DNA of 64,000 nt from Desulfobacteraceae bacterium Eth-SRB1 (GTDB taxonomy: Bacteria; Desulfobacterota; Desulfobacteria; Desulfobacterales; ETH-SRB1): positions 65,127-129,126 of the forward strand of contig RPGP01000040.1 in the NCBI GenBank assembly GCA_004193555.1. Reading direction: 5' to 3'. The translations under genes were made by a program, and so were the position numbers. Below the pieces are notes generated by a model that made no database searches, was not told the origin of the DNA, and worked only from the letters and a program-made list of their open reading frames with translations. Within the stretch, counting starts at the first letter, position 1. Every line of letters starts with the position of its first letter. Below, piece by piece: positions 4,381 to 61,946 of the stretch.

Positions 4381-4679
4381 ATGAACGTCCAACATCGAAC
4401 GTCCAACGTCGAACGTCGAACGTCGAATAATGATGTCGCTTCGCTTTTCAAATTATTTTAAAATCGAATAAAAAAACAAACATCCAATACCGAACATATT
4501 AAAAGATGAACGTCCAACATCGAACCACGCCTTGGCGTGGATGAAATCGCTGGGTTTATGCTGAGTAACCGAAGTGCTCCGCCAGTTTACAAATTGGCAG
4601 AATACCTTATTCAAAATTCGATGTTGGACGTTCGATGTTCGATGTTCATCTCTTTTCTCGTTCGATGTTCATCTTTTTT
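4381..4679. repeat. TTCGATG/TTGGACG-word element, two inverted copies around a 190-bp core
   Basis: ATGAACGTCCAACATCGAACGTCCAACGTCGAACGTCGAACGTCGAA (4381-4427) versus TTCGATGTTGGACGTTCGATGTTCGATGTTCAT (4617-4649). Extra partial copies at 4505-4525 and 4659-4679. Confidence 0.9.
4545..4579. repeat. 35-nt conserved block, copy 1
   Basis: AATCGCTGGGTTTATGCTGAGTAACCGAAGTGCTC. 33 of 35 positions identical to 26744-26778. Confidence 0.85.
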
Positions 4680-5787: not shown

Positions 5788-6007
5788 GTTCAGGGGTTCA
5801 GGGTTCAGTATAATTTTAAGTTTTGAATTTTGAATGAAGGAAAAATCGTTTTTATACCAAATTGAGGAGCAAAGCGACATCATCATTCAAAATTCGATGT
5901 TGGACGTTCGATGTTCGACGTTCATCTTTTCAATGGTTCAATGGTTCAATGGTTCAAGGGTTCAGGAATTGAGGGTATCCTATTGATTTTAATCCCTTAA
6001 TCCCTTA
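5788..6007. repeat. Mosaic of word repeats between prfB and lnt
   Basis: (GGTTCAG)3 at 5788-5808. TTTTGAATTTTGAATGAAGG (5821-5840) pairing with TCATTCAAAATTCG (5883-5896). TTCGATG/TTGGACG words at 5893-5925. (CAATGGTT)4 at 5931-5966. TTAATCCC x2 at 5989-6007. Confidence 0.9.
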
Positions 6008-10670: not shown

Positions 10671-11093
10671 ATGATTATTGAAATGAGGCCCATAGGTTTT
10701 GTATATCACGATCATGAAAAGGTCCCCCGACACTGGTCTGTTTCCGATGTTGAAGGAACGCTGGTAATCGATGAGGAATATATAGGGGGGCTCAAAGACA
10801 TCAAAGCAGGCCGGCGCATTGTCGTAATTTTCTATTTTCATAAGAGTCCTGAGTTTGTTTCGCGATATCTCAGGCAAAGCCCACCCCACAGAAATGGAAT
10901 TATGGGTGTTTTCAGCACATGCTCGCCAAAGAGACCAAATCCCATCGGGATGTCGGTTCTGGAGGTTCTTGACATTAAGGGTAATGTAATTCGTGTCAAG
11001 GGGATAGACATGTTAAATGGAACCCCTGTCCTTGATATAAAACCACATATTATTGATAAACATACCTGTCCAAGTTTTAAGGACGAAGTGTAA
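10671..11093 (+). CDS. trmO: tRNA m6t6A37 methyltransferase TrmO/TsaA family
   Basis: MIIEMRPIGFVYH...GVFSTCSPKRPNPIGMSVLEVL...NGTPVLDIKP. The start is uncertain (GTG 10662, ATG 10671 or ATG 10683). Confidence 0.8.
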   Translation: MIIEMRPIGFVYHDHEKVPRHWSVSDVEGTLVIDEEYIGGLKDIKAGRRIVVIFYFHKSPEFVSRYLRQSPPHRNGIMGVFSTCSPKRPNPIGMSVLEVLDIKGNVIRVKGIDMLNGTPVLDIKPHIIDKHTCPSFKDEV

Positions 11094-11100
11094 TCAGAAG

Positions 11101-11139
11101 CCGTTCACGGCTTGAAACTTGAAATTGGAAAGTAGAAAT
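11101..11139 (+). repeat. 39-nt unit CCGTTCACGGCTTGAAACTTGAAATTGGAAAGTAGAAAT, copy 1
   Basis: Identical to 56746-56784. 38 of 39 positions match the reverse complement of 31766-31804. The 29-nt core recurs at 55680-55708. Confidence 0.9.
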
Positions 11140-11159
11140 TTGGTAGAAAAAGAAATGGG

Positions 11160-11298
11160 ATCAAGTCTACGTTTGACCCATGAGCAATCTATTTTCTCTT
11201 ATTTCAATAGGGCTTCTGATTTTTTATCTTTATTCTTAAGCTTCTATGCCCACTTGAATCTTGACTAATTAACAACAAGGGTCAAACGTAGACTTGAT
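11160..11298. repeat. Perfect 20-bp inverted repeat with 99-bp loop
   Basis: ATCAAGTCTACGTTTGACCC (11160-11179) / GGGTCAAACGTAGACTTGAT (11279-11298). Confidence 0.9.
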
Positions 11299-11360
11299 AA
11301 TCATATAAAGGGCTTAGTGTTGAGCTGGAGCAAAATCATCGCCAAGTGCTTTACTTTGTA

Positions 11361-11536
11361 GGTGCACGAGGCATACTCGTCAAGCGTGACATTTTCCTAC
11401 GGAACGCTTCGCTAAATGTCACTACAGCCTGACGAGTTTAAAATGAAATGACACCTCCCTAACCCTTAGCAAAAGGTGCTAAGGGTACCAGTACGTAAGT
11501 ACGTAACATTAATTTTATGGTTTTAGGAGGTGTCAT
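11361..11536 (+). ncRNA. Structured IS110 leader (candidate regulatory or bridge-RNA-like region)
   Basis: Stem/internal-loop/stem: ACTCGTCA-AGC-GTGACATTT (11375-11394) pairs with AAATGTCAC-TACAGCC-TGACGAGT (11414-11437). Hairpin CCCTTAGC/GCTAAGGG (11463-11485). Transcription not shown. Confidence 0.25.
11448..11536 (+). promoter_or_regulatory. Anti-SD pairing that can sequester the transposase RBS
   Basis: ATGACACCTCC (11448-11458) is the perfect reverse complement of GGAGGTGTCAT (11526-11536). The latter is the SD plus the bases abutting ATG 11537. Confidence 0.4.
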
Positions 11537-12445
11537 ATGGAAACATACGCTGGAATCGATTTACATTCAAGTAATAATTACATCGGTATTATCAATGAGC
11601 AAAATCAGAGACTTTATGGGAAACGGATACCAAACGAACTGGACAGAGTTTTGATGGCGCTGGAACCGTTTAAGGATACACTGAAAGGTGTAGTCGTAGA
11701 ATCAACATACAACTGGTACTGGCTGGTAGACGGTTTGCAGGAGCATGGATACAAATTGCATTTAGCTAATCCGGCAGCGATTAAGCAATACGAAGGTCTG
11801 AAACATACAGATGACAAATGGGACGCGTTCTGGCTGGCCCACTTGAAGCGTTTGGATATTTTGCCCGAAGGTTATATATATCCAAAAGAGGAACGTCCTG
11901 TAAGGGATTTGCTGCGCAGAAGGCTTTTGTTTGTTCAGCACAGCACATCCCACATTTTAAGTCTTCAAAGCATGATAACAAGGAATATTGGATTAAAGAT
12001 GTCCGGCAATGCGATAAAGAAGCTTAAAGAAGAAGAAGTTGAAGGAATGTTTGATTCTTCCAATCTGGTCTTTATGGCCCAAAATAATACAGCGACCATT
12101 CAGTTTTTAAAGAAAATAGTTAAGGATATTGAAAAACAAGTAAAATCCCAGGTAAAGCTTAGAAAAGAATTTAAGATGCTGCTGACGATCACGGGGATTG
12201 GGAATATTTTAGGACTTACCATAATGCTGGAAGTAGGAGACATAAACCGTTTTGCTGAAGTTGGAAACTATTCTTCATATTGCCGGTGTGTGAAAAGCGA
12301 GAGACTTTCTAATGGCAAGAAAAAAGGAGAGAACAACAAAAAGAACGGAAATAAATATTTATCCTGGGCATATGTAGAAGCAGCGAACTTTGCGATCAGG
12401 CATAGTGTAAAAGCACATAGTTTTTATCAACGTAAAAAAGCCTAA
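11537..12445 (+). CDS. IS110-family DEDD transposase, interrupted by an in-frame TAA (reading frame continues to 12553)
   Basis: AGIDLHS, VESTYNWYW and HTDDKWDA (DEDD N-domain). C-terminal LLTITGIGNILG...SERLSNGKKKG..KNGNKYLSWAY. After TAA 12443-12445 the same frame reads RNGIVAIKALANKICRASYYIMRDCVPFNEEMLFR*, the conserved family C-terminus. Confidence 0.85.
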   Translation: METYAGIDLHSSNNYIGIINEQNQRLYGKRIPNELDRVLMALEPFKDTLKGVVVESTYNWYWLVDGLQEHGYKLHLANPAAIKQYEGLKHTDDKWDAFWLAHLKRLDILPEGYIYPKEERPVRDLLRRRLLFVQHSTSHILSLQSMITRNIGLKMSGNAIKKLKEEEVEGMFDSSNLVFMAQNNTATIQFLKKIVKDIEKQVKSQVKLRKEFKMLLTITGIGNILGLTIMLEVGDINRFAEVGNYSSYCRCVKSERLSNGKKKGENNKKNGNKYLSWAYVEAANFAIRHSVKAHSFYQRKKA

Positions 12446-12803
12446 AGAAACGGTATAGTTGCAATTAAAGCATTAGCCAATAAGATTTGCAGGGCATCCT
12501 ATTACATCATGCGTGATTGTGTGCCCTTTAATGAAGAGATGCTTTTTCGTTAATCAGTTTGGGTGCGGCAGTGAACCGGTAATGGGCCGTGCTTTAAGCA
12601 TTGCGCTTAAAATACAATTGCCTTGAACCTGATGGGTGACTGGTGCGGATCAGCTTGGGCTGACTGCTAACCTATGAAAAGAAATAAACGGGTGCGAAAA
12701 AAGGTGATAAAGCGAGGCTGTGCTGTGGCGAAAGTAAGAGGACAAGCAAAAAAGGATGTATTTTTTTTAAGGGAGAGGTGTTTTTTTTCTTGACAGGCCC
12801 TTT

Positions 12804-12826
12804 AATGGGTGACCCCATTTTTTTTT
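12804..12826 (+). terminator. Intrinsic-terminator-like hairpin plus T-run at the IS right side
   Basis: AATGGG-TGAC-CCCATT followed by T8 (12818-12826). Confidence 0.45.
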
Positions 12827-12836
12827 ACCAGCGACT

Positions 12837-13480
12837 TGTTATACGATTTCATTGAATGACTATTACAATTAGGTGTTGCTGCATTTCTTTACTACCCTCA
12901 TTCCACATACCATCCCATGCAACCTGAACAGTAAGAGTATTGGACTCTGCCGAATCAGAGACCGCTTTGAATCTCATACGAATTGGTTCGTTTGGTGGGA
13001 AAGTGGGATCTAAATTATTTGGGCACCAGTATAGCTGGAGAGCAAAACGTTTTGCATCCTCAACAACGAAACCGAAAGTCGACATTTCATCAGGTCCGAT
13101 TGTTGTATATGCGGGAGTGATGTTTGGCCATTTCCATGTAACGTGAACTGGGCCACTGAAAACGATAGGCCTCCAGTTTCCATCTGGGCCTTGCTTGATA
13201 ATCTCTATAAGAAGTACTCTGACATTCTTTGCAGGAGACGACTGTCGTTCGTTTATAACATCAAGACTATAGTATCTTGCTTTTTTCCCATCGCCTCGGG
13301 TGGTAAATGATCCTTGAGGATCGGCGAGAGATATTTTTAGCTTCGGTTTAGTCCACCACTGGCGTATACGTTCGCCCCATAAGGCAACTATTACTGCCAT
13401 AAAAGTTACGGAAGATCCAAGGATTCCAACAAGTAAACTATACTTTTCATAATCAGTCATAATTTATCTCTCGTATAACA
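12837..13480. repeat. Perfect 10-bp inverted repeat bracketing the orphan ORF
   Basis: TGTTATACGA (12837-12846) and TCGTATAACA (13471-13480). On the minus strand these read GTTATAC upstream of the ORF and GTATAAC downstream, resembling integron core and inverse-core sites. Confidence 0.7.
12849..13460 (-). CDS. Orphan membrane-anchored protein, function unknown (cassette-like ORF)
   Basis: 203 aa. One N-terminal TM helix (LLVGILGSSVTFMAVIVALW) then a beta-rich domain. Flanked by a perfect 10-bp inverted repeat and AT-rich DNA. No family recognised. Confidence 0.6.
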   Translation of the reverse strand: MTDYEKYSLLVGILGSSVTFMAVIVALWGERIRQWWTKPKLKISLADPQGSFTTRGDGKKARYYSLDVINERQSSPAKNVRVLLIEIIKQGPDGNWRPIVFSGPVHVTWKWPNITPAYTTIGPDEMSTFGFVVEDAKRFALQLYWCPNNLDPTFPPNEPIRMRFKAVSDSAESNTLTVQVAWDGMWNEGSKEMQQHLIVIVIQ

Positions 13481-14044: not shown

Positions 14045-14401
14045 ATGAAACTATTAGATCAGGTACGTAACGTTATAAGAAAAAAGCATTATTCAATCCG
14101 TACAGAACAGGCATATACAGATTGGATCAAAAGATTTATACTGTTCCATGGAAAAAAACACCCCAAAGATATGGGGGAGAGTGAGATTTCAAAGTATATA
14201 TCATACCTTGCCGTAAAGAGAAATGTTGCTGCGAGCACCCAGAATCAGGCCCTCAATGCCATTGTTTTTCTTTATAAACAGGTATTGAATAGAGAACTGG
14301 GTGACTTCGGGAGTATGGAAAGGGCCAAAAGATCTAAAGGCGGCATGGGAGTTAAAAGTCCACTGGATATGGTCGAGCAGGGGGAATTAAGAGGAAGATA
14401 A
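14045..14401 (+). pseudogene. Integron-integrase (IntI-like) remnant with internal deletion
   Basis: N-terminal SAM-like domain (HYSIRTEQAYTDWIKRFILFHGKKHP...STQNQALNAIVFLYKQVL...RAKRSK) is joined directly to the extreme C-terminal motif GGMGVKSPLD. The entire catalytic domain is missing. Confidence 0.7.
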
Positions 14402-14403
14402 TC

Positions 14404-15054
14404 ATGAAATTTGATATATTTATCAGGCGTGTTTTTGAAGCCCTTAAAATATCGTCTCAGAACAGGCTTGCAATACTCCTTGGGATCAACAGGGCCGGAA
14501 TTACGCAGGCCAAAAAGAAGGGAACTGTTCCTGACAGGTGGATCCTGGACCTTTACAGGAAATATGGCATAAACCCTGACTGGATTGAGACCGGCAAGGG
14601 AAAAATGTTTATCGCGGAAAGGAATGGCAGCGTTGTTGTTCCTGAATATAAGAGCGCCCCCCATGTAAAAGCCAGGCTTTGCGCTGGTGACGGATCTTTT
14701 GAAGTTGATGAAAATATCAGTGATTACTGGATGTTCAGGGCCGACTGGCTCAAGCGTAAAGGATCGCCTTCACATATGATCCTTATCGATATCTATGGAA
14801 ACAGCATGGAGCCTGCGCTAAAAGATGGAGATACAGTCCTGATTGATACATCCGGAAAGGATATACTGGCAGGATCAATATATGCCGTGGGTATTGACGA
14901 TACAATCATGGTTAAAAGAATAGAGAAGCATCCGGGCAAACTGGTTCTTATGAGCGACAATAAAGATTATGAACCCGTTTATTTGAGTCAGTATGAGATG
15001 AACAGCGTTCGCATCATCGGAAAAGTTGTATGGATATCGAGAGATGTGAGATAA
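14404..15054 (+). CDS. Phage CI/LexA-like repressor (HTH + S24 peptidase)
   Basis: N-terminal CI-type HTH (QNRLAILLGINRAGITQAKKKGTVPDRW). C-terminal S24 domain with GNSMEP (Ser) and VKRIEK (Lys). Starts 2 nt after the intI remnant stop. Confidence 0.8.
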   Translation: MKFDIFIRRVFEALKISSQNRLAILLGINRAGITQAKKKGTVPDRWILDLYRKYGINPDWIETGKGKMFIAERNGSVVVPEYKSAPHVKARLCAGDGSFEVDENISDYWMFRADWLKRKGSPSHMILIDIYGNSMEPALKDGDTVLIDTSGKDILAGSIYAVGIDDTIMVKRIEKHPGKLVLMSDNKDYEPVYLSQYEMNSVRIIGKVVWISRDVR

Positions 15055-23410: not shown

Positions 23411-23574
23411 TAAGTGCCTAAAATGCCTAAAGTTGTGGTACGCCTTCGGAGTGCTGATTGATAGCTCAAAAATAGAAAGGGTTTGCTCACCTGTGCATTG
23501 ATGACTTATATAAAACAGGCAGAATACCTTAACTTTAGACACTTTAATATACTTTAGCTCATTTTAGGCACTTA
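23411..23574 (+). repeat. GCCTAAAGT-family palindromic element, copy 1 (greA-rpoZ gap)
   Basis: TAAGTGCCTAAAATGCCTAAAGTTGTGGTACGCCTTCGG ... CCTTAACTTTAGACACTTTAATATACTTTAGCTCATTTTAGGCACTTA. Confidence 0.9.
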
Positions 23575-35315: not shown

Positions 35316-35564
35316 AGTGCCTAAAGTATATTAAAGTGCCTAAAATGCCTAAAGTTAAGGAATGCGCCTTCGGCACTGCTGATTTTAAGTTTTACCATAC
35401 AAGTTAGCCACTTGAAACCTAACGTACAAGCGTGTCATGTCTGTGTATTGTGCCGACAAAAAGGAGTTTGTAAAGCTCGGTAGCATTGAGGTTGTCAATT
35501 AGCTCGCCGAAGGCGTACCACAACTTTAGGCATTTTAGGCACTTTAGCTCACTTTAGGCACTTA
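35316..35564 (-). repeat. GCCTAAAGT-family palindromic element, copy 2 (acsC-acsE gap, inverted)
   Basis: Both termini match copy 3 in reverse orientation. The terminal TAAGTGCC supplies the acsC stop codon (35564-35562). Confidence 0.9.
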
Positions 35565-36983: not shown

Positions 36984-37223
36984 TAAGTGCCTAAAATGAG
37001 CTAAAGTGCCTAAAATGCCTAAAGTTGTGGTACGCCTTCGGCGTGCTATATATTTTCAGTGCTTGCTTATAAGTTCAGACCCGCCGTGCTCGCGCCTGTC
37101 GCTGCAGGTAGAAACACAGTAAGCAAAGTAGTATGGTGAAAAAAATTAAAATTGGTAGCGCCAAAGAAGCATTCCTTAACTTTAGGCACTTTAATATACT
37201 TTAGTTCACTTTAGGCACTTTAA
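36984..37223 (+). repeat. GCCTAAAGT-family palindromic element, copy 3 (acsB-acsC gap)
   Basis: TAAGTGCCTAAAATGAGCTAAAGTGCCTAAAATGCCTAAAGTTGTGGTACGCCTTCGGCG ... GCATTCCTTAACTTTAGGCACTTTAATATACTTTAGTTCACTTTAGGCACTTTAA. Confidence 0.9.
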
Positions 37224-55620: not shown

Positions 55621-55808
55621 ACAGTTCACGGTTAAAATGCTTCAGGTGTTACATAGCTCGTAACCCCGCCGTGGCGGGGCTTGAAACTTGAAATTGGAAA
55701 GTAGAAATTGGGAAAAACAGTACAAAAACATGAAGGCCAAATTTCCAATTTCTAATTTCAATGTTCCGTGAACGCTTAGTATAGTTCATTGAAAAAAGTG
55801 TGAACTGT
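55621..55808. repeat. Nested palindromic element containing the 29-nt CTTGAAA-word core (39-nt unit, copy 3)
   Basis: Outer ACAGTTCAC/GTGAACTGT (55621-55629 / 55800-55808). Core CTTGAAACTTGAAATTGGAAAGTAGAAAT (55680-55708) faces the partly complementary CCAAATTTCCAATTTCTAATTTCAATG (55737-55763). Confidence 0.85.
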
Positions 55809-56745: not shown

Positions 56746-56784
56746 CCGTTCACGGCTTGAAACTTGAAATTGGAAAGTAGAAAT
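56746..56784 (+). repeat. 39-nt unit, copy 4 (44 nt upstream of the response-regulator ATG)
   Basis: CCGTTCACGGCTTGAAACTTGAAATTGGAAAGTAGAAAT, identical to copy 1. Confidence 0.9.
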
Positions 56785-56827
56785 ATAGGGAGAAGGGCGC
56801 TAATTTAATATCTATGAGGAGGTAAAA

Positions 56828-61552: not shown

Positions 61553-61946
61553 CTCACGCAAAGGCGCAAAGGCGCTAAAAATATAATTTTGAGTTTTTAA
61601 TTTTGAATTTTGAATGAAGGAAAAAAGTCCGATTTTAATTGAAGCTCCCCGCCGCAAGCAGCGCGGAATGCGCTCACTATTCAGTTCAAATAGCCTAACA
61701 GCCTTCAGCCTAATAAGCTAATCCCTAAATTCTCAATCCTTAAATTCCTTCAACTCAAAATTCAAAATTATCTCTCCATTCCCAATTCCCTGTTTTTCAT
61801 TCGACGTTGGACGTTCGATGTTGGACGTTCATCTTTTCTATTCCCTCTGTTTTTTCCCTTCGACATTCTGCGGTTCATTATTCTGCGGTTCTGCGGTTTT
61901 CTGATCCTCTATCCTATTTTCTCTCCCCTTAGCGCCTTTGCGTGAG
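61553..61946. repeat. 394-bp composite bounded by GCAAAGGC-word inverted repeats
   Basis: CTCACGCAAAGGCGCAAAGGCGCTAA (61553-61578) / TTAGCGCCTTTGCGTGAG (61929-61946). The interior carries TTTTGAATTTTGAATGAAGG, TTCGACG/TTGGACG words (61798-61830), (TTCTGCGG)n and AATCCCT words. A third arm copy lies at 62749-62764. Confidence 0.9.

What the first reader, a model, noticed from the sequence alone, without database searches (positions are those of the whole stretch)
11300..12830. IS110-family element with a long structured 5' region (possible guide/bridge-type RNA) and an RBS-sequestering helix
IS110-family recombinases are now known to use an element-encoded structured non-coding RNA, the bridge RNA, to specify target and donor DNA.

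This element has about 235 nt of non-coding sequence upstream of the ORF. It contains a stem/internal-loop/stem (11375-11437), an 8-bp hairpin (11463-11485) and an 11-nt perfect pairing between 11448-11458 and the SD/start region (11526-11536).

About 280 nt lie downstream of the ORF, with repeated GGGTGCG/ATGGGTGAC motifs and a terminator-like hairpin (12804-12826).

The internal loop I can see is small (3 x 7 nt), so assigning it as a bridge RNA is tentative. The anti-SD helix by itself suggests translational control of the transposase.
Basis: partly seen in the sequence, partly recalled or inferred. Interest (0 to 1): 0.6.

Follow-up and report, generated by a model that had tools for sequence, protein, structure and literature searches.

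The report
Decayed IS1111-type insertion sequence copy
This is a dead copy of an RNA-guided jumping gene: its guide RNA lies after the transposase gene, not before it as first thought, and this copy has lost the target-reading part of that RNA and carries a premature stop codon, so it is an ordinary decayed mobile element.

Summary
The element is real. It is an IS110-family insertion sequence of the IS1111 group, at window 11298-12812 (1515 bp). It sits in a terminator-like hairpin, GGGTCAA..TTGA|CCCC-T9, with TGA repeated at both junctions.

Eighty related loci fixed its ends and showed covarying subterminal inverted repeats. They also showed that the guide (bridge/seek) RNA lies 3' of the transposase gene. 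It has a target-binding internal loop whose two sides track the flanking target across elements (0 of 20,000 permutations reach the observed match). It also has a donor guide, GAUGGGUGA, that covaries with the right end.

The window copy is defective. Codon 303 is TAA, where relatives have Glu or Lys. A 190-nt deletion at 12586|12587 removes half of the target-binding loop and the next module. The family covariance model scores 16 bits here against 40-104 bits in relatives.

The anti-SD helix is kept in 42 of 42 relatives, with compensatory changes. The two-stem element at 11375-11437 covaries within a subclade. Neither carries guide-like matches, so the 5' bridge-RNA reading is not supported, while translational control is plausible.

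This is a new, decayed member of a known kind.

The parts
11147..11182 (-). Intact paralogue of the target: terminator-like hairpin GGGTCAAACGTAGACTTGATCCC followed by a T-run. It lies 93 nt left of the disrupted copy, in inverted orientation.
   Evidence: Inverted repeats I1 and I5. Pattern search finds 2 hits against 0 expected. Terminator scan. Folds at -8.7 kcal/mol.
11276..11297 (+). Left half of the disrupted target (not part of the IS). It ends in the core TGA (11295-11297).
   Evidence: In genomes with several copies, the flanks diverge upstream of YTGA (L036/37/38, L062/63/74). It matches the 3' guide AAGACTTGA of the closest intact relatives.
11298..12812 (+). The insertion sequence, 1515 bp, from TAATCATATAAAGGGC to GCCCTTTAATGGGTGA. 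The boundary is ambiguous by the 3-nt TGA repeat.
   Evidence: End motifs and flanks in 53 complete relatives. blastn homology limits. It is the only copy in the window.
11303..11313 (+). Left subterminal inverted repeat (ATATAAAGGGC).
   Evidence: Pairs with 12797-12806. Compensatory variants occur across relatives: AGAGGC/GCCTCT, AAGAGC/GCTCTT, AAGGTC/GACCTT, GTAGGC/GCCTAC.
11375..11437 (+). Conserved two-stem leader element with a UNCG-type tetraloop. Function unknown; it is not a guide.
   Evidence: 22 predicted pairs, 6 of them with compensatory changes, in 21 relatives. It is absent from short-leader relatives. Its loops are invariant while targets vary.
11448..11458 (+). Anti-Shine-Dalgarno strand (AUGACACCUCC).
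   Evidence: Pairs with 11526-11536. Conserved in 42 of 42 relatives with covariation.
11463..11503 (+). Two small hairpins enclosed by the anti-SD helix (11463-11485 and about 11491-11502).
   Evidence: MFE and centroid folds. Compensatory variants of the first hairpin occur in relatives: CCATAGC/GCTATGG, CCGTAGC/GCTACGG, TTATAGC/GCTATAA.
11526..11539 (+). Shine-Dalgarno region GGAGGUGUCAU followed by the start codon ATG (11537).
11537..12553 (+). IS110-family transposase gene, 338 codons, interrupted by TAA at codon 303 (12443-12445).
   Evidence: Relatives have GAA, GAG or AAA at this codon and encode an intact 338 aa. The lost tail aligns to the C-terminal helix of IS621.
12561..12586 (+). 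Remnant of the target-binding module: the 5' arm of the outer stem (GGGTGCGGCAG) and the right-target guide remnant (GGTAATGGG).
   Evidence: Alignment to L001, L003 and L004. The R1 model hit scores only 16.3 bits, with 31 interior positions missing.
12586..12587 (+). Junction of the 190-191-nt deletion, flanked by GGG(G) microhomology. It removed the inner hairpin and left-target guide of the target-binding loop, the whole second TBL-like module, and the 5' arm of the closing stem.
12587..12653 (+). Retained 3' part of the donor-binding multiloop domain: hairpin 12589-12615, donor guide GAUGGGUGA at 12631-12639, and the closing-stem 3' arm GCGGAUCAG at 12645-12653.
   Evidence: The R2 model aligns only its positions from about 116 to 209 here, at 74.6 bits against about 218 bits in L001 and L004. 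The donor guide covaries with the right end in L006, L021, L044 and L077.
12790..12795 (+). TTGACA, a candidate -35 box of a junction promoter. GATAAT forms 15 nt downstream only when the right end joins the left end.
   Evidence: Read from the sequence. TTGAC is conserved in all relatives. Function is inferred.
12797..12806 (+). Right subterminal inverted repeat (GCCCTTTAAT).
12813..12826 (+). Right half of the target (CCCCATTTTTTTTT).

Best explanation
Window 11298-12812 is one copy of an IS110-family insertion sequence of the IS1111 group. Its nearest named relative is ISGsu4-like, at 47% amino-acid identity.

How intact family members work:

- They carry their guide RNA 3' of the transposase gene.
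- An ~80-nt module lies right after the stop codon. It is a 10-bp stem enclosing an internal loop. The 5' side of the loop (N6-GGGGU) is complementary to the top strand of the right half of the target. The 3' side (N6-UGA) equals the top strand of the left half plus the core.
- A downstream multiloop domain carries GAUGGGUGA, which equals the right tip of the element. This is the donor guide.
- Recombination at a TGA core places the element inside the 3' arm of a terminator-like hairpin, ..AGACTTGA|CCCC-Tn.
- A TTGACA near the right tip would form a promoter with GATAAT only in the circular junction.
- The mRNA leader hides its Shine-Dalgarno sequence in an 11-bp helix, which probably keeps translation low.

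The state of the window copy:

- It integrated at a site that matches the guides of its closest intact relatives, then decayed.
- A point mutation made codon 303 a stop.
- A 190-nt deletion removed half of the target-binding loop and the following module.
- It therefore cannot make a full transposase or choose a target. At most it could be moved by another copy.

Shown here: the ends, the repeats, guide-target and guide-donor covariation, the deletion, the stop codon and the conserved leader helix.

Inferred: RNA expression, the junction promoter, translational repression and loss of activity.
For: - Family: Pfam and NCBIfam assign it to the IS110 family. It is homologous to the IS621 and ISCro4 transposase structures.
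- Ends and target: 53 complete relatives give the ends and the target consensus, including identical elements with different flanks in one genome.
- Subterminal repeats: they carry compensatory variants.
- Gene and non-coding ends: relatives have a 338-aa ORF, a right end of 362-834 nt and a left end of 78-350 nt.
- Target-binding module: 10-bp outer stem, 9 pairs with compensatory changes.
- Guide-target tracking: the left guide matches 165 of 216 positions against 108.6 +/- 6.5 by permutation. The right guide matches 135 of 252 against 108.9 +/- 5.8. Neither value was reached in 20,000 permutations.
- Donor guide: it covaries with the right tip (ATGGATGA in L006, L021 and L044; ATGGGTGC in L077).
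- Multiloop domain: 44 predicted pairs, 21 with compensatory changes.
- Damage in the window: TAA where relatives have GAA, GAG or AAA, and a 190-191-nt deletion. Model R1 scores 16.3 bits against 40-104 bits in relatives that were not used to build it. Model R2 scores 74.6 bits against about 218. The remnant right end folds no better than shuffles (z = -0.08).
- Insertion site: the window's site (TAGACTTGA|CCCCATTT) matches the guides of L003 and L004 (AAGACUUGA and GUAAUGGGGU) over 8 + 8 nt.
- Leader helix: conserved in 42 of 42 relatives.
- Literature: right-end location, top-then-bottom order of target matches, and donor nucleotides in a multiloop are what is described for IS1111 elements (PMC11187229, PMC11208160).
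Against: - No RNA data. Expression, processing and the 5' and 3' ends of the guide RNA are unknown.
- A guide for the right half of the donor (the left tip, TAATCAT) was not found.
- The role of the second TBL-like module is unclear. Its 3' side tracks the left target only weakly and its 5' side not at all.
- The C-terminal motif differs from the IS1111 consensus: S-N-G in place of S/T-G, and no Pro in the GL-P position.
- The proposed -10 box (GATAAT) lies only 15 nt from the -35 box in this subclade.
- Loss of activity of the 302-aa product is inferred, not tested.
- Rfam holds nothing that matches, so no curated bridge-RNA model could be applied.
Confidence: 0.85

Rival explanations
1. One reading: the structured 5' region (11375-11437 and neighbours) is the bridge/guide RNA, as in IS110-group elements such as IS621.
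For: - The region is long (239 nt) and strongly structured (z = -4.9).
- The two-stem element is conserved, with 6 covarying pairs.
- Siddiquee et al. note that some IS have long non-coding regions at both ends (PMC11187229).
Against: - Its unpaired nucleotides are almost invariant across elements whose targets differ.
- No recurrent match of 7 nt or more to target or donor at a fixed left-end position.
- Many relatives lack the element altogether, with leaders of 78-150 nt, yet they insert at the same kind of site.
- Guide-target covariation is found in the right end instead.
Confidence: 0.04
2. The copy is not dead but non-autonomous. Its tips, subterminal repeats and donor guide are intact, so an intact copy elsewhere in the genome could supply transposase and target-binding RNA in trans and move it.
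For: - Both tips and repeats are intact, and the donor guide and its hairpin are retained.
- TBL-only and full bridge RNAs can act as separate molecules in IS110-family systems (bioRxiv 10.1101/2025.10.25.684509).
- ISPpu9 mobilises a MITE-like partner in trans (PMC12288879).
Against: - The closing stem of the donor-binding domain has lost its 5' arm.
- No other copy lies in the 64-kb window.
- An exact search for the 22-nt deletion junction in the metagenome collection found nothing, so there is no sign that this variant spreads.
Confidence: 0.2
3. The left-flank sequence GGGTCAAACGTAGACTTGA and its inverted partner at 11157-11179 are the terminal inverted repeats of a small MITE-like element (about 145 bp). 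The IS targets those repeats, as IS4321 and IS5075 target Tn21-family ends, rather than host terminators.
For: - The 36-nt inverted pair matches at 33 of 36 positions.
- Similar inverted pairs lie next to the IS in L002, L016 and L028 (17-nt spacing) and in L008.
- About 16 loci from different MAGs share a flank family, GRGTCAARNGNAGAYTTGA, that extends beyond the guide length.
- There is precedent for IS1111 elements that target transposon ends (Partridge and Hall 2003, cited in PMC11208160).
Against: - Many insertions have flanks that share only the guide-length match (for example L036-38, L055, L056).
- The unit is a hairpin plus T-run lying between convergent genes, which fits an intrinsic terminator or a REP-like repeat.
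- The window holds only these two copies.
Confidence: 0.25

Closest known systems
IS1111-group insertion sequences with a 3' seekRNA/bridge RNA (ISEc11, ISKpn4, ISPa11; Siddiquee et al. 2024, PMC11187229; Durrant et al. 2024, PMC11208160)
   Same: - DEDD transposase of about 338 aa.
- Subterminal inverted repeats.
- The longer non-coding region lies downstream of tnp.
- An ~80-nt RNA module carries a top-strand match 5' of a bottom-strand match, and the two matches overlap at the junction.
- Donor-binding nucleotides sit in a multiloop.
- The target is a specific palindromic site.
- A -35 box lies in the right end, for a junction promoter.
   Different: - Protein similarity to named elements is low; the best named match is ISGsu4-like at 47%.
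- The C-terminal motif reads S-N-G.
- A second TBL-like loop sits inside the donor domain.
- Some relatives carry two tandem target-binding modules.
- The leader is long (up to 350 nt) and holds an anti-SD helix.
- The window copy has lost the target-binding loop and the end of the ORF.
IS621 bridge RNA system (IS110 group; Durrant 2024; Hiraizumi 2024, PMC11208158)
   Same: - Homologous recombinase: phmmer E = 2e-7 to 8wt6, aligned through to the C-terminal helix.
- The logic of two-sided loop guides reading both strands around a short core.
   Different: - In IS621 the RNA is in the left end, downstream of the junction promoter. Here it is in the right end.
- The core is TGA, not CT.
- The order of strand matches is reversed.
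- The donor loop is a multiloop, not a simple internal loop.
ISPpu9 5'-UTR (IS110 family, Pseudomonas putida; PMC12288879 and its ref. 26)
   Same: A long tnp leader folds into a structure that inhibits translation of the transposase mRNA.
   Different: ISPpu9 adds an antisense sRNA (Asr9) and a downstream sRNA (Ssr9). No such partners were looked for or found here. The sequences are unrelated.
IS10/IS50 'fold-back' inhibition of read-through transcripts (own knowledge)
   Same: An upstream segment pairs with the ribosome-binding site of the transposase mRNA.
   Different: In IS10 the element's own promoter starts inside the helix, so only outside transcripts are blocked. Here the anti-SD strand lies downstream of the predicted junction-promoter start, so all transcripts would carry it.

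Membership tests
IS110 family (DEDD RNA-guided transposases) | N-terminal DEDD/RuvC-like domain plus C-terminal Transposase_20 domain | tested here: met
   PF01548 at 6e-12 and PF02371 at 8e-14. NF033542 scores 169 bits against a cut-off of 140. Aligns to IS621 8wt6.
IS110 family (DEDD RNA-guided transposases) | Intact transposase reading frame | tested here: not met
   TAA at codon 303 (12443-12445). Nine close relatives have GAA, GAG or AAA there, and 338-aa ORFs.
IS110 family (DEDD RNA-guided transposases) | Site-specific insertion, with no terminal inverted repeats and only a short core repeated at both junctions | tested here: met
   TGA at 11295-11297 and 12810-12812. A target consensus is shared by about 50 insertions.
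IS1111 group | Subterminal inverted repeats of 7-17 bp | tested here: met
   TAAAGGGC at 11306-11313 pairs with GCCCTTTA at 12797-12804. At least 6 compensatory variants occur among relatives.
IS1111 group | The longer non-coding region lies downstream of tnp | tested here: met
   In relatives the right end is 362-834 nt and the left end 78-350 nt. In the window the right end is cut to 259 nt by the deletion, against 239 nt for the left end.
IS1111 group | Right-end RNA carrying a top-strand target match 5' of a bottom-strand match (seekRNA / target-binding loop) | tested here: not met
   Relatives meet this. In the window copy only the 5' guide remnant GGUAAUGGG survives. Model R1 scores 16.3 bits against 40-104.
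IS1111 group | C-terminal GL-P----S(t)G motif (PMC11187229) | tested here: inconclusive
   The sequence reads ..SYCRCVKSERLSNGKKKG.. An S-N-G lies near the Ser that aligns with IS621 S241. No Pro is present at the expected place. No alignment with curated IS1111 proteins was made.
IS1111 group | Donor-binding nucleotides that match the element tips | tested here: inconclusive
   The left-donor guide GAUGGGUGA is present (12631-12639) and covaries with the right tip in 4 relatives. No guide for the left tip was found.
   No recurrent left-end matches. The loops of 11375-11437 are invariant while targets vary. The element is absent from many relatives.
   An Rfam 15 E-value scan of 10900-13200 gave only chance miRNA-like hits on the flanking inverted repeat. 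The published IS110/IS1111 models were not available. Family-specific models R1 and R2 were built instead.
Junction promoter (Pjunc) of IS110/IS1111 circles | A -35 box in the right end and a -10 box in the left end that form a promoter only in the circle | not testable with these tools
   TTGACA at 12790-12795, then 15 nt, then GATAAT spanning 12811-12812 and 11298-11301. TTGAC is conserved in all relatives. No circle or transcript data exist.

The most novel reading that the evidence does not exclude
The family to which this decayed copy belongs may use a modular guide region: one, or in some members two, tandem ~80-nt target-binding modules with different guide sequences, followed by a donor-binding multiloop that contains a third TBL-like loop.

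In two genomes, identical two-module elements sit at sites whose left halves match one module or the other. In the first genome L062 and L074 differ from L063. In the second, L036 differs from L037 and L038. This would mean that one element naturally carries two target specificities through duplicated guide cassettes.

Separately, the conserved UNCG-capped two-stem element in the leader, together with the universal anti-SD helix, could be a regulated translational switch rather than a constitutive brake.
Probability: 0.4. Interest if true: 0.55.

Novelty: new member of a known kind. Interest (0 to 1): 0.33.

Why it matters
For the window itself it matters little. It is a fossil copy of a known class of RNA-guided insertion sequence, and it should be annotated as a pseudogene with a truncated guide RNA.

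It is useful as a cautionary case. In IS110-family elements with two long non-coding ends, the structured 5' end need not be the guide. The group (IS110 or IS1111) has to be settled first, and subterminal repeats settle it quickly.

The set of relatives gathered here gives a well-defined clade of bridge/seek-RNA elements, mostly from Desulfobacterales MAGs. The clade offers:

- clear guide-target rules (an N6-UGA guide and an N6-GGGGU guide around a TGA core);
- natural variants with duplicated target modules;
- a conserved leader helix.

These could interest people who engineer bridge recombinases.

Tried and rejected
- **Rfam scan of 10900-13200 at E <= 10.** Only weak miRNA-precursor-like hits, caused by the 139-bp inverted repeat in the left flank. 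No bridge-RNA family matched.
- **Integron attC site.** I considered whether the flanking inverted repeat (11160-11182 / 11276-11298) is an attC site, because an integrase-like fragment lies at 14045. Rejected: the arm order is GTTTGAC...GTCAAAC, the reverse of R''...R', and the fragment is only a Phage_int_SAM_4 N-terminal piece next to a CI-like repressor.
- **Repeat arm as part of the IS.** I first took 11274-11297 to be inside the IS, because blastn homology with relatives starts there. Rejected after comparing identical elements at different sites. It is conserved target.
- **Guide for the left tip (TAATCAT).** Sought by exact 7-mers in both ends and by eye in alignment A2. CUGAUUCGC shares only UGAUU, does not covary with the TAATC/TATTC/TATAC variants, and is better explained as the 5' arm of a closing stem.
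- **Second TBL-like module as an IS621-style handshake guide.** Rejected as a strict analogue. It has the same polarity as the left-target guide, and handshake guides are only 1-2 nt.
- **Right-end motif GGAGAGGUGU as a decoy for the anti-SD strand.** It does not covary with the GACACC/GGCACC variants.
- **Tail of the right end (12655-12812).** No conserved structure, only sequence motifs.
- **Exact search for the deletion junction in metagenome contigs.** No hits.
- **DNA search of plasmids.** Only short matches at 69-75% identity inside the gene.
Full report
**What is in the sequence.** The region holds an ORF at 11537-12445 (302 codons). Its frame continues past an in-frame TAA (12443-12445) to a second TAA at 12551-12553, giving 338 codons in all. 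With the stop masked, the protein carries the Pfam domains DEDD_Tnp_IS110 and Transposase_20. It passes the NCBIfam equivalog NF033542, 'IS110 family RNA-guided transposase', at 169 bits against a cut-off of 140. It aligns to the IS621 and ISCro4 transposase structures as far as their C-terminal helix. The best named match in annotated plasmids is 'ISGsu4 family', at 47% identity.

**Ends, core and target.** A scan of one genome per species returned 80 loci that encode relatives at 59-93% identity, mostly Desulfobacterales MAGs. blastn showed that homology runs from about 11274 to about 12826, and that every close relative has about 190 extra bases between window 12586 and 12587. Printing both junctions for all loci fixed the ends.

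- Identical elements in one genome (L036/37/38 and L062/63/74) have flanks that diverge upstream of YTGA on the left and begin with CCCC or CACC on the right.
- The element is therefore 11298-12812: TAATCATATAAAGGGC ... GCCCTTTAATGGGTGA.
- TGA is present at both junctions.
- The subterminal repeats (TAAAGGGC / GCCCTTTA) change in step across relatives: AGAGGC/GCCTCT, AAGAGC/GCTCTT, AAGGTC/GACCTT, GTAGGC/GCCTAC and others. Subterminal inverted repeats are the hallmark of the IS1111 group (PMC11208160, PMC11187229).
- The sequence I first took for the IS end (GGGTCAAACGTAGACTTGA, 11279-11297) is the left half of the target.
- Rejoined with 12813-12826, it gives GGGTCAAACGTAGACTTGACCCC plus T9, a hairpin of -10.2 kcal/mol followed by a U-run.
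- An intact, inverted paralogue lies 93 nt to the left, at 11147-11182.
- The site lies between convergent genes: a TrmO-like gene ending at 11093 and an unknown ORF ending at 12849.

**Where the guide RNA is.** The relatives have intact 338-aa genes, left ends of 78-350 nt and right ends of 362-834 nt. The right ends share a clear plan.

- *Module 1* starts just after the stop codon. It is a 10-bp stem, and 9 of its pairs show compensatory changes. The stem encloses CC/GG pairs, an internal loop and a small UGG..CCA hairpin.
- The 3' side of the loop reads N6-UGA, followed by UUGG. The 5' side reads N6-GGGGU.
- Across elements, the 3' side equals the top strand of the left target half including TGA. 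Examples of matched guide and target are AGACTTGA, AGGTTTGA, CAAGCCTGA, AGCTTTGA, AACTCTGA, AGGGCTGA and TGGTCTGA.
- The 5' side is the reverse complement of the right half. For example, UAGGUGGGU pairs with CCCACCTA in L058, and AUCGUGUGGU with CCACACGAC in L044.
- Shuffling which element goes with which flank never reached the observed agreement. The left guide matched 165 of 216 positions against 108.6 +/- 6.5. The right guide matched 135 of 252 against 108.9 +/- 5.8. Both were tested with 20,000 permutations over 36 distinct guide sets.
- The order, with the top-strand complement 5' of the bottom-strand complement, is the one reported for IS1111-family seekRNAs (PMC11187229).

**The donor side.**

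- Downstream lies a domain with 44 predicted pairs, 21 of them with compensatory changes.
- It contains a second TBL-like loop. The 3' side of that loop tracks the left target only weakly (182 against 161.7 +/- 3.7), and its 5' side does not track the right target.
- It also contains two covarying hairpins and, in the multiloop, the invariant stretch GAUGGGUGACUGGUGCGG.
- AUGGGUGA equals the right tip of the element and changes with it: ATGGATGA in L006, L021 and L044, and ATGGGTGC in L077.
- Donor-binding nucleotides in a multiloop are what Durrant et al. describe for many IS1111 orthologues.
- I did not find a guide for the left tip.

**State of the window copy.**

- Codon 303 is TAA, where nine close relatives have GAA, GAG or AAA. 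The 36 residues that are lost align with the conserved C-terminal helix of IS621.
- The right end lacks 190-191 nt between GGTAATGGG| and |CCGTGC, with GGG(G) microhomology at the two edges.
- The deletion removes the inner hairpin and left-target guide of module 1, the whole second module, and the 5' arm of the closing stem.
- A covariance model of module 1 (R1) scores 40-104 bits on relatives that were not used to build it, but only 16.3 bits (E = 0.02) at 12554-12632, with 31 interior positions missing.
- The model of the downstream domain (R2) scores about 218 bits on L001 and L004 but 74.6 bits here, and only its 3' 45% is truly aligned.
- The remnant folds no better than shuffled sequence (z = -0.08).
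- The insertion site still matches the guides of the closest intact relatives over 8 + 8 nt. The copy therefore arrived by the normal route and decayed afterwards.
- It is the only copy in the window. The deletion junction was not found in the metagenome collection.
- Two close relatives, L002 and L005, also have damaged right ends.

**The 5' region.**

- The anti-SD pairing is the one leader feature shared by all 42 relatives aligned. It is kept through A-U to G-C changes in 12 of them and a U-A swap in one. In elements with 78-97-nt leaders, it sits right next to the left subterminal repeat.
- The hairpin it encloses also varies in a compensatory way.
- The two-stem element at 11375-11437 is confined to a subclade. 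It has 6 pairs with compensatory changes and a UNCG-type tetraloop, which argues for an RNA structure.
- The loops of that element are nearly invariant across elements with different targets, and no recurrent target or donor match lies in the left end. The 5' region is therefore a structured mRNA leader, not the guide.
- An inhibitory tnp leader is documented for ISPpu9 (PMC12288879).
- That the helix lowers translation here is an inference.

**Promoter and terminator.** TTGACA (12790-12795) is conserved near the right tip in all relatives. Joined to the left tip, it is followed after 15 nt by GATAAT. This hybrid-promoter arrangement is known for IS621, ISEc11 and ISPpu10, but it is untested here.

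**Verdict.** The assignment to the IS110 family and the idea of translational control are supported, and the 5' bridge-RNA idea is not. The element is a new but decayed member of the IS1111 group, whose guide RNA is 3' of the gene and is half deleted in this copy.

Noticed in passing
L062/L063/L074, L036/L037/L038, L044, L020, L026, L040, L007 (right ends): Some relatives carry two tandem copies of the ~80-nt target-binding module, with different guide sequences. In one genome, identical elements sit at sites whose left half matches module a (L062, L074: AGCTTTGA) or module b (L063: AGATGTGA). L036 differs from L037/38 in the same way. In L044 both target halves match module b.
   Followed up: partly
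L038, L063, L061, L049, L079, L033, L066 (right tips): The right tip reads GGGCGA instead of GGGTGA. This includes single copies of otherwise identical elements (L038 against L036/37; L063 against L062/74), while the left junction keeps TGA. It suggests that the first base of TGA lies inside the exchanged core and that mismatched targets are tolerated.
   Followed up: no
L030, L031, L041, L042, L053, L069 (right junctions): The last 19 nt of the right end are tandemly duplicated (..GGGTGA|CCTTACCTTGAATGGGTGA|CCC). The duplicated piece starts right after CTTGA in the -35 region, which resembles the target CTTGA|CC.
   Followed up: no
window 12804-12826: Insertion rebuilds a hairpin plus T-run from the IS tip (AATGGG) and the right target half (CCCATT + T9). 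A terminator-like signal therefore remains at the right junction after the original hairpin is split.
   Followed up: partly
window 11109-11148, 55678-55717, 56754-56793: A 31-40-nt repeat, GGCTTGAAACTTGAAATTGGAAAGTAGAAAT, occurs three times, each just after a small GC-rich hairpin at the end of a gene. At 55678 it is followed by its own inverted copy. Its nature is unknown.
   Followed up: no
window 14045-15054: A 118-aa ORF holds only the N-terminal SAM-like domain of a phage or integron-type integrase (PF13495) and lacks the catalytic domain. It is followed directly by a CI-repressor/S24-peptidase gene. This looks like a remnant of an integrated element.
   Followed up: partly
window 4609-4667, 5885-5943, 61792-61850; 23412-23573, 35334-35563, 37004-37220: Two further families of short dispersed repeats: one of TTCGATGTTGGACGTTCGATG-type units and one of AAGTGCCTAAA / CTTTAGGCACTT units in paired blocks. 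Neither was examined.
   Followed up: no
L017, L002, L016, L028, L008 and window left flanks: The target hairpin often occurs as an inverted pair next to the IS, with spacing of 17 nt in three loci and 93-127 nt in two. In L004 it occurs as a direct tandem. The left-flank family GRGTCAARNGNAGAYTTGA is shared by about 16 MAGs over more bases than the guide covers. The natural target may therefore be a widespread REP- or MITE-like repeat.
   Followed up: partly
window 12182-12267 of the protein (NCBIfam hit): There is a weak sub-threshold similarity (21 bits, E = 2e-4) of the coiled-coil/Tnp region to the TIGR-Tas RNA-guided endonuclease model. This is in line with the published deep relationship of these families.
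   Followed up: no
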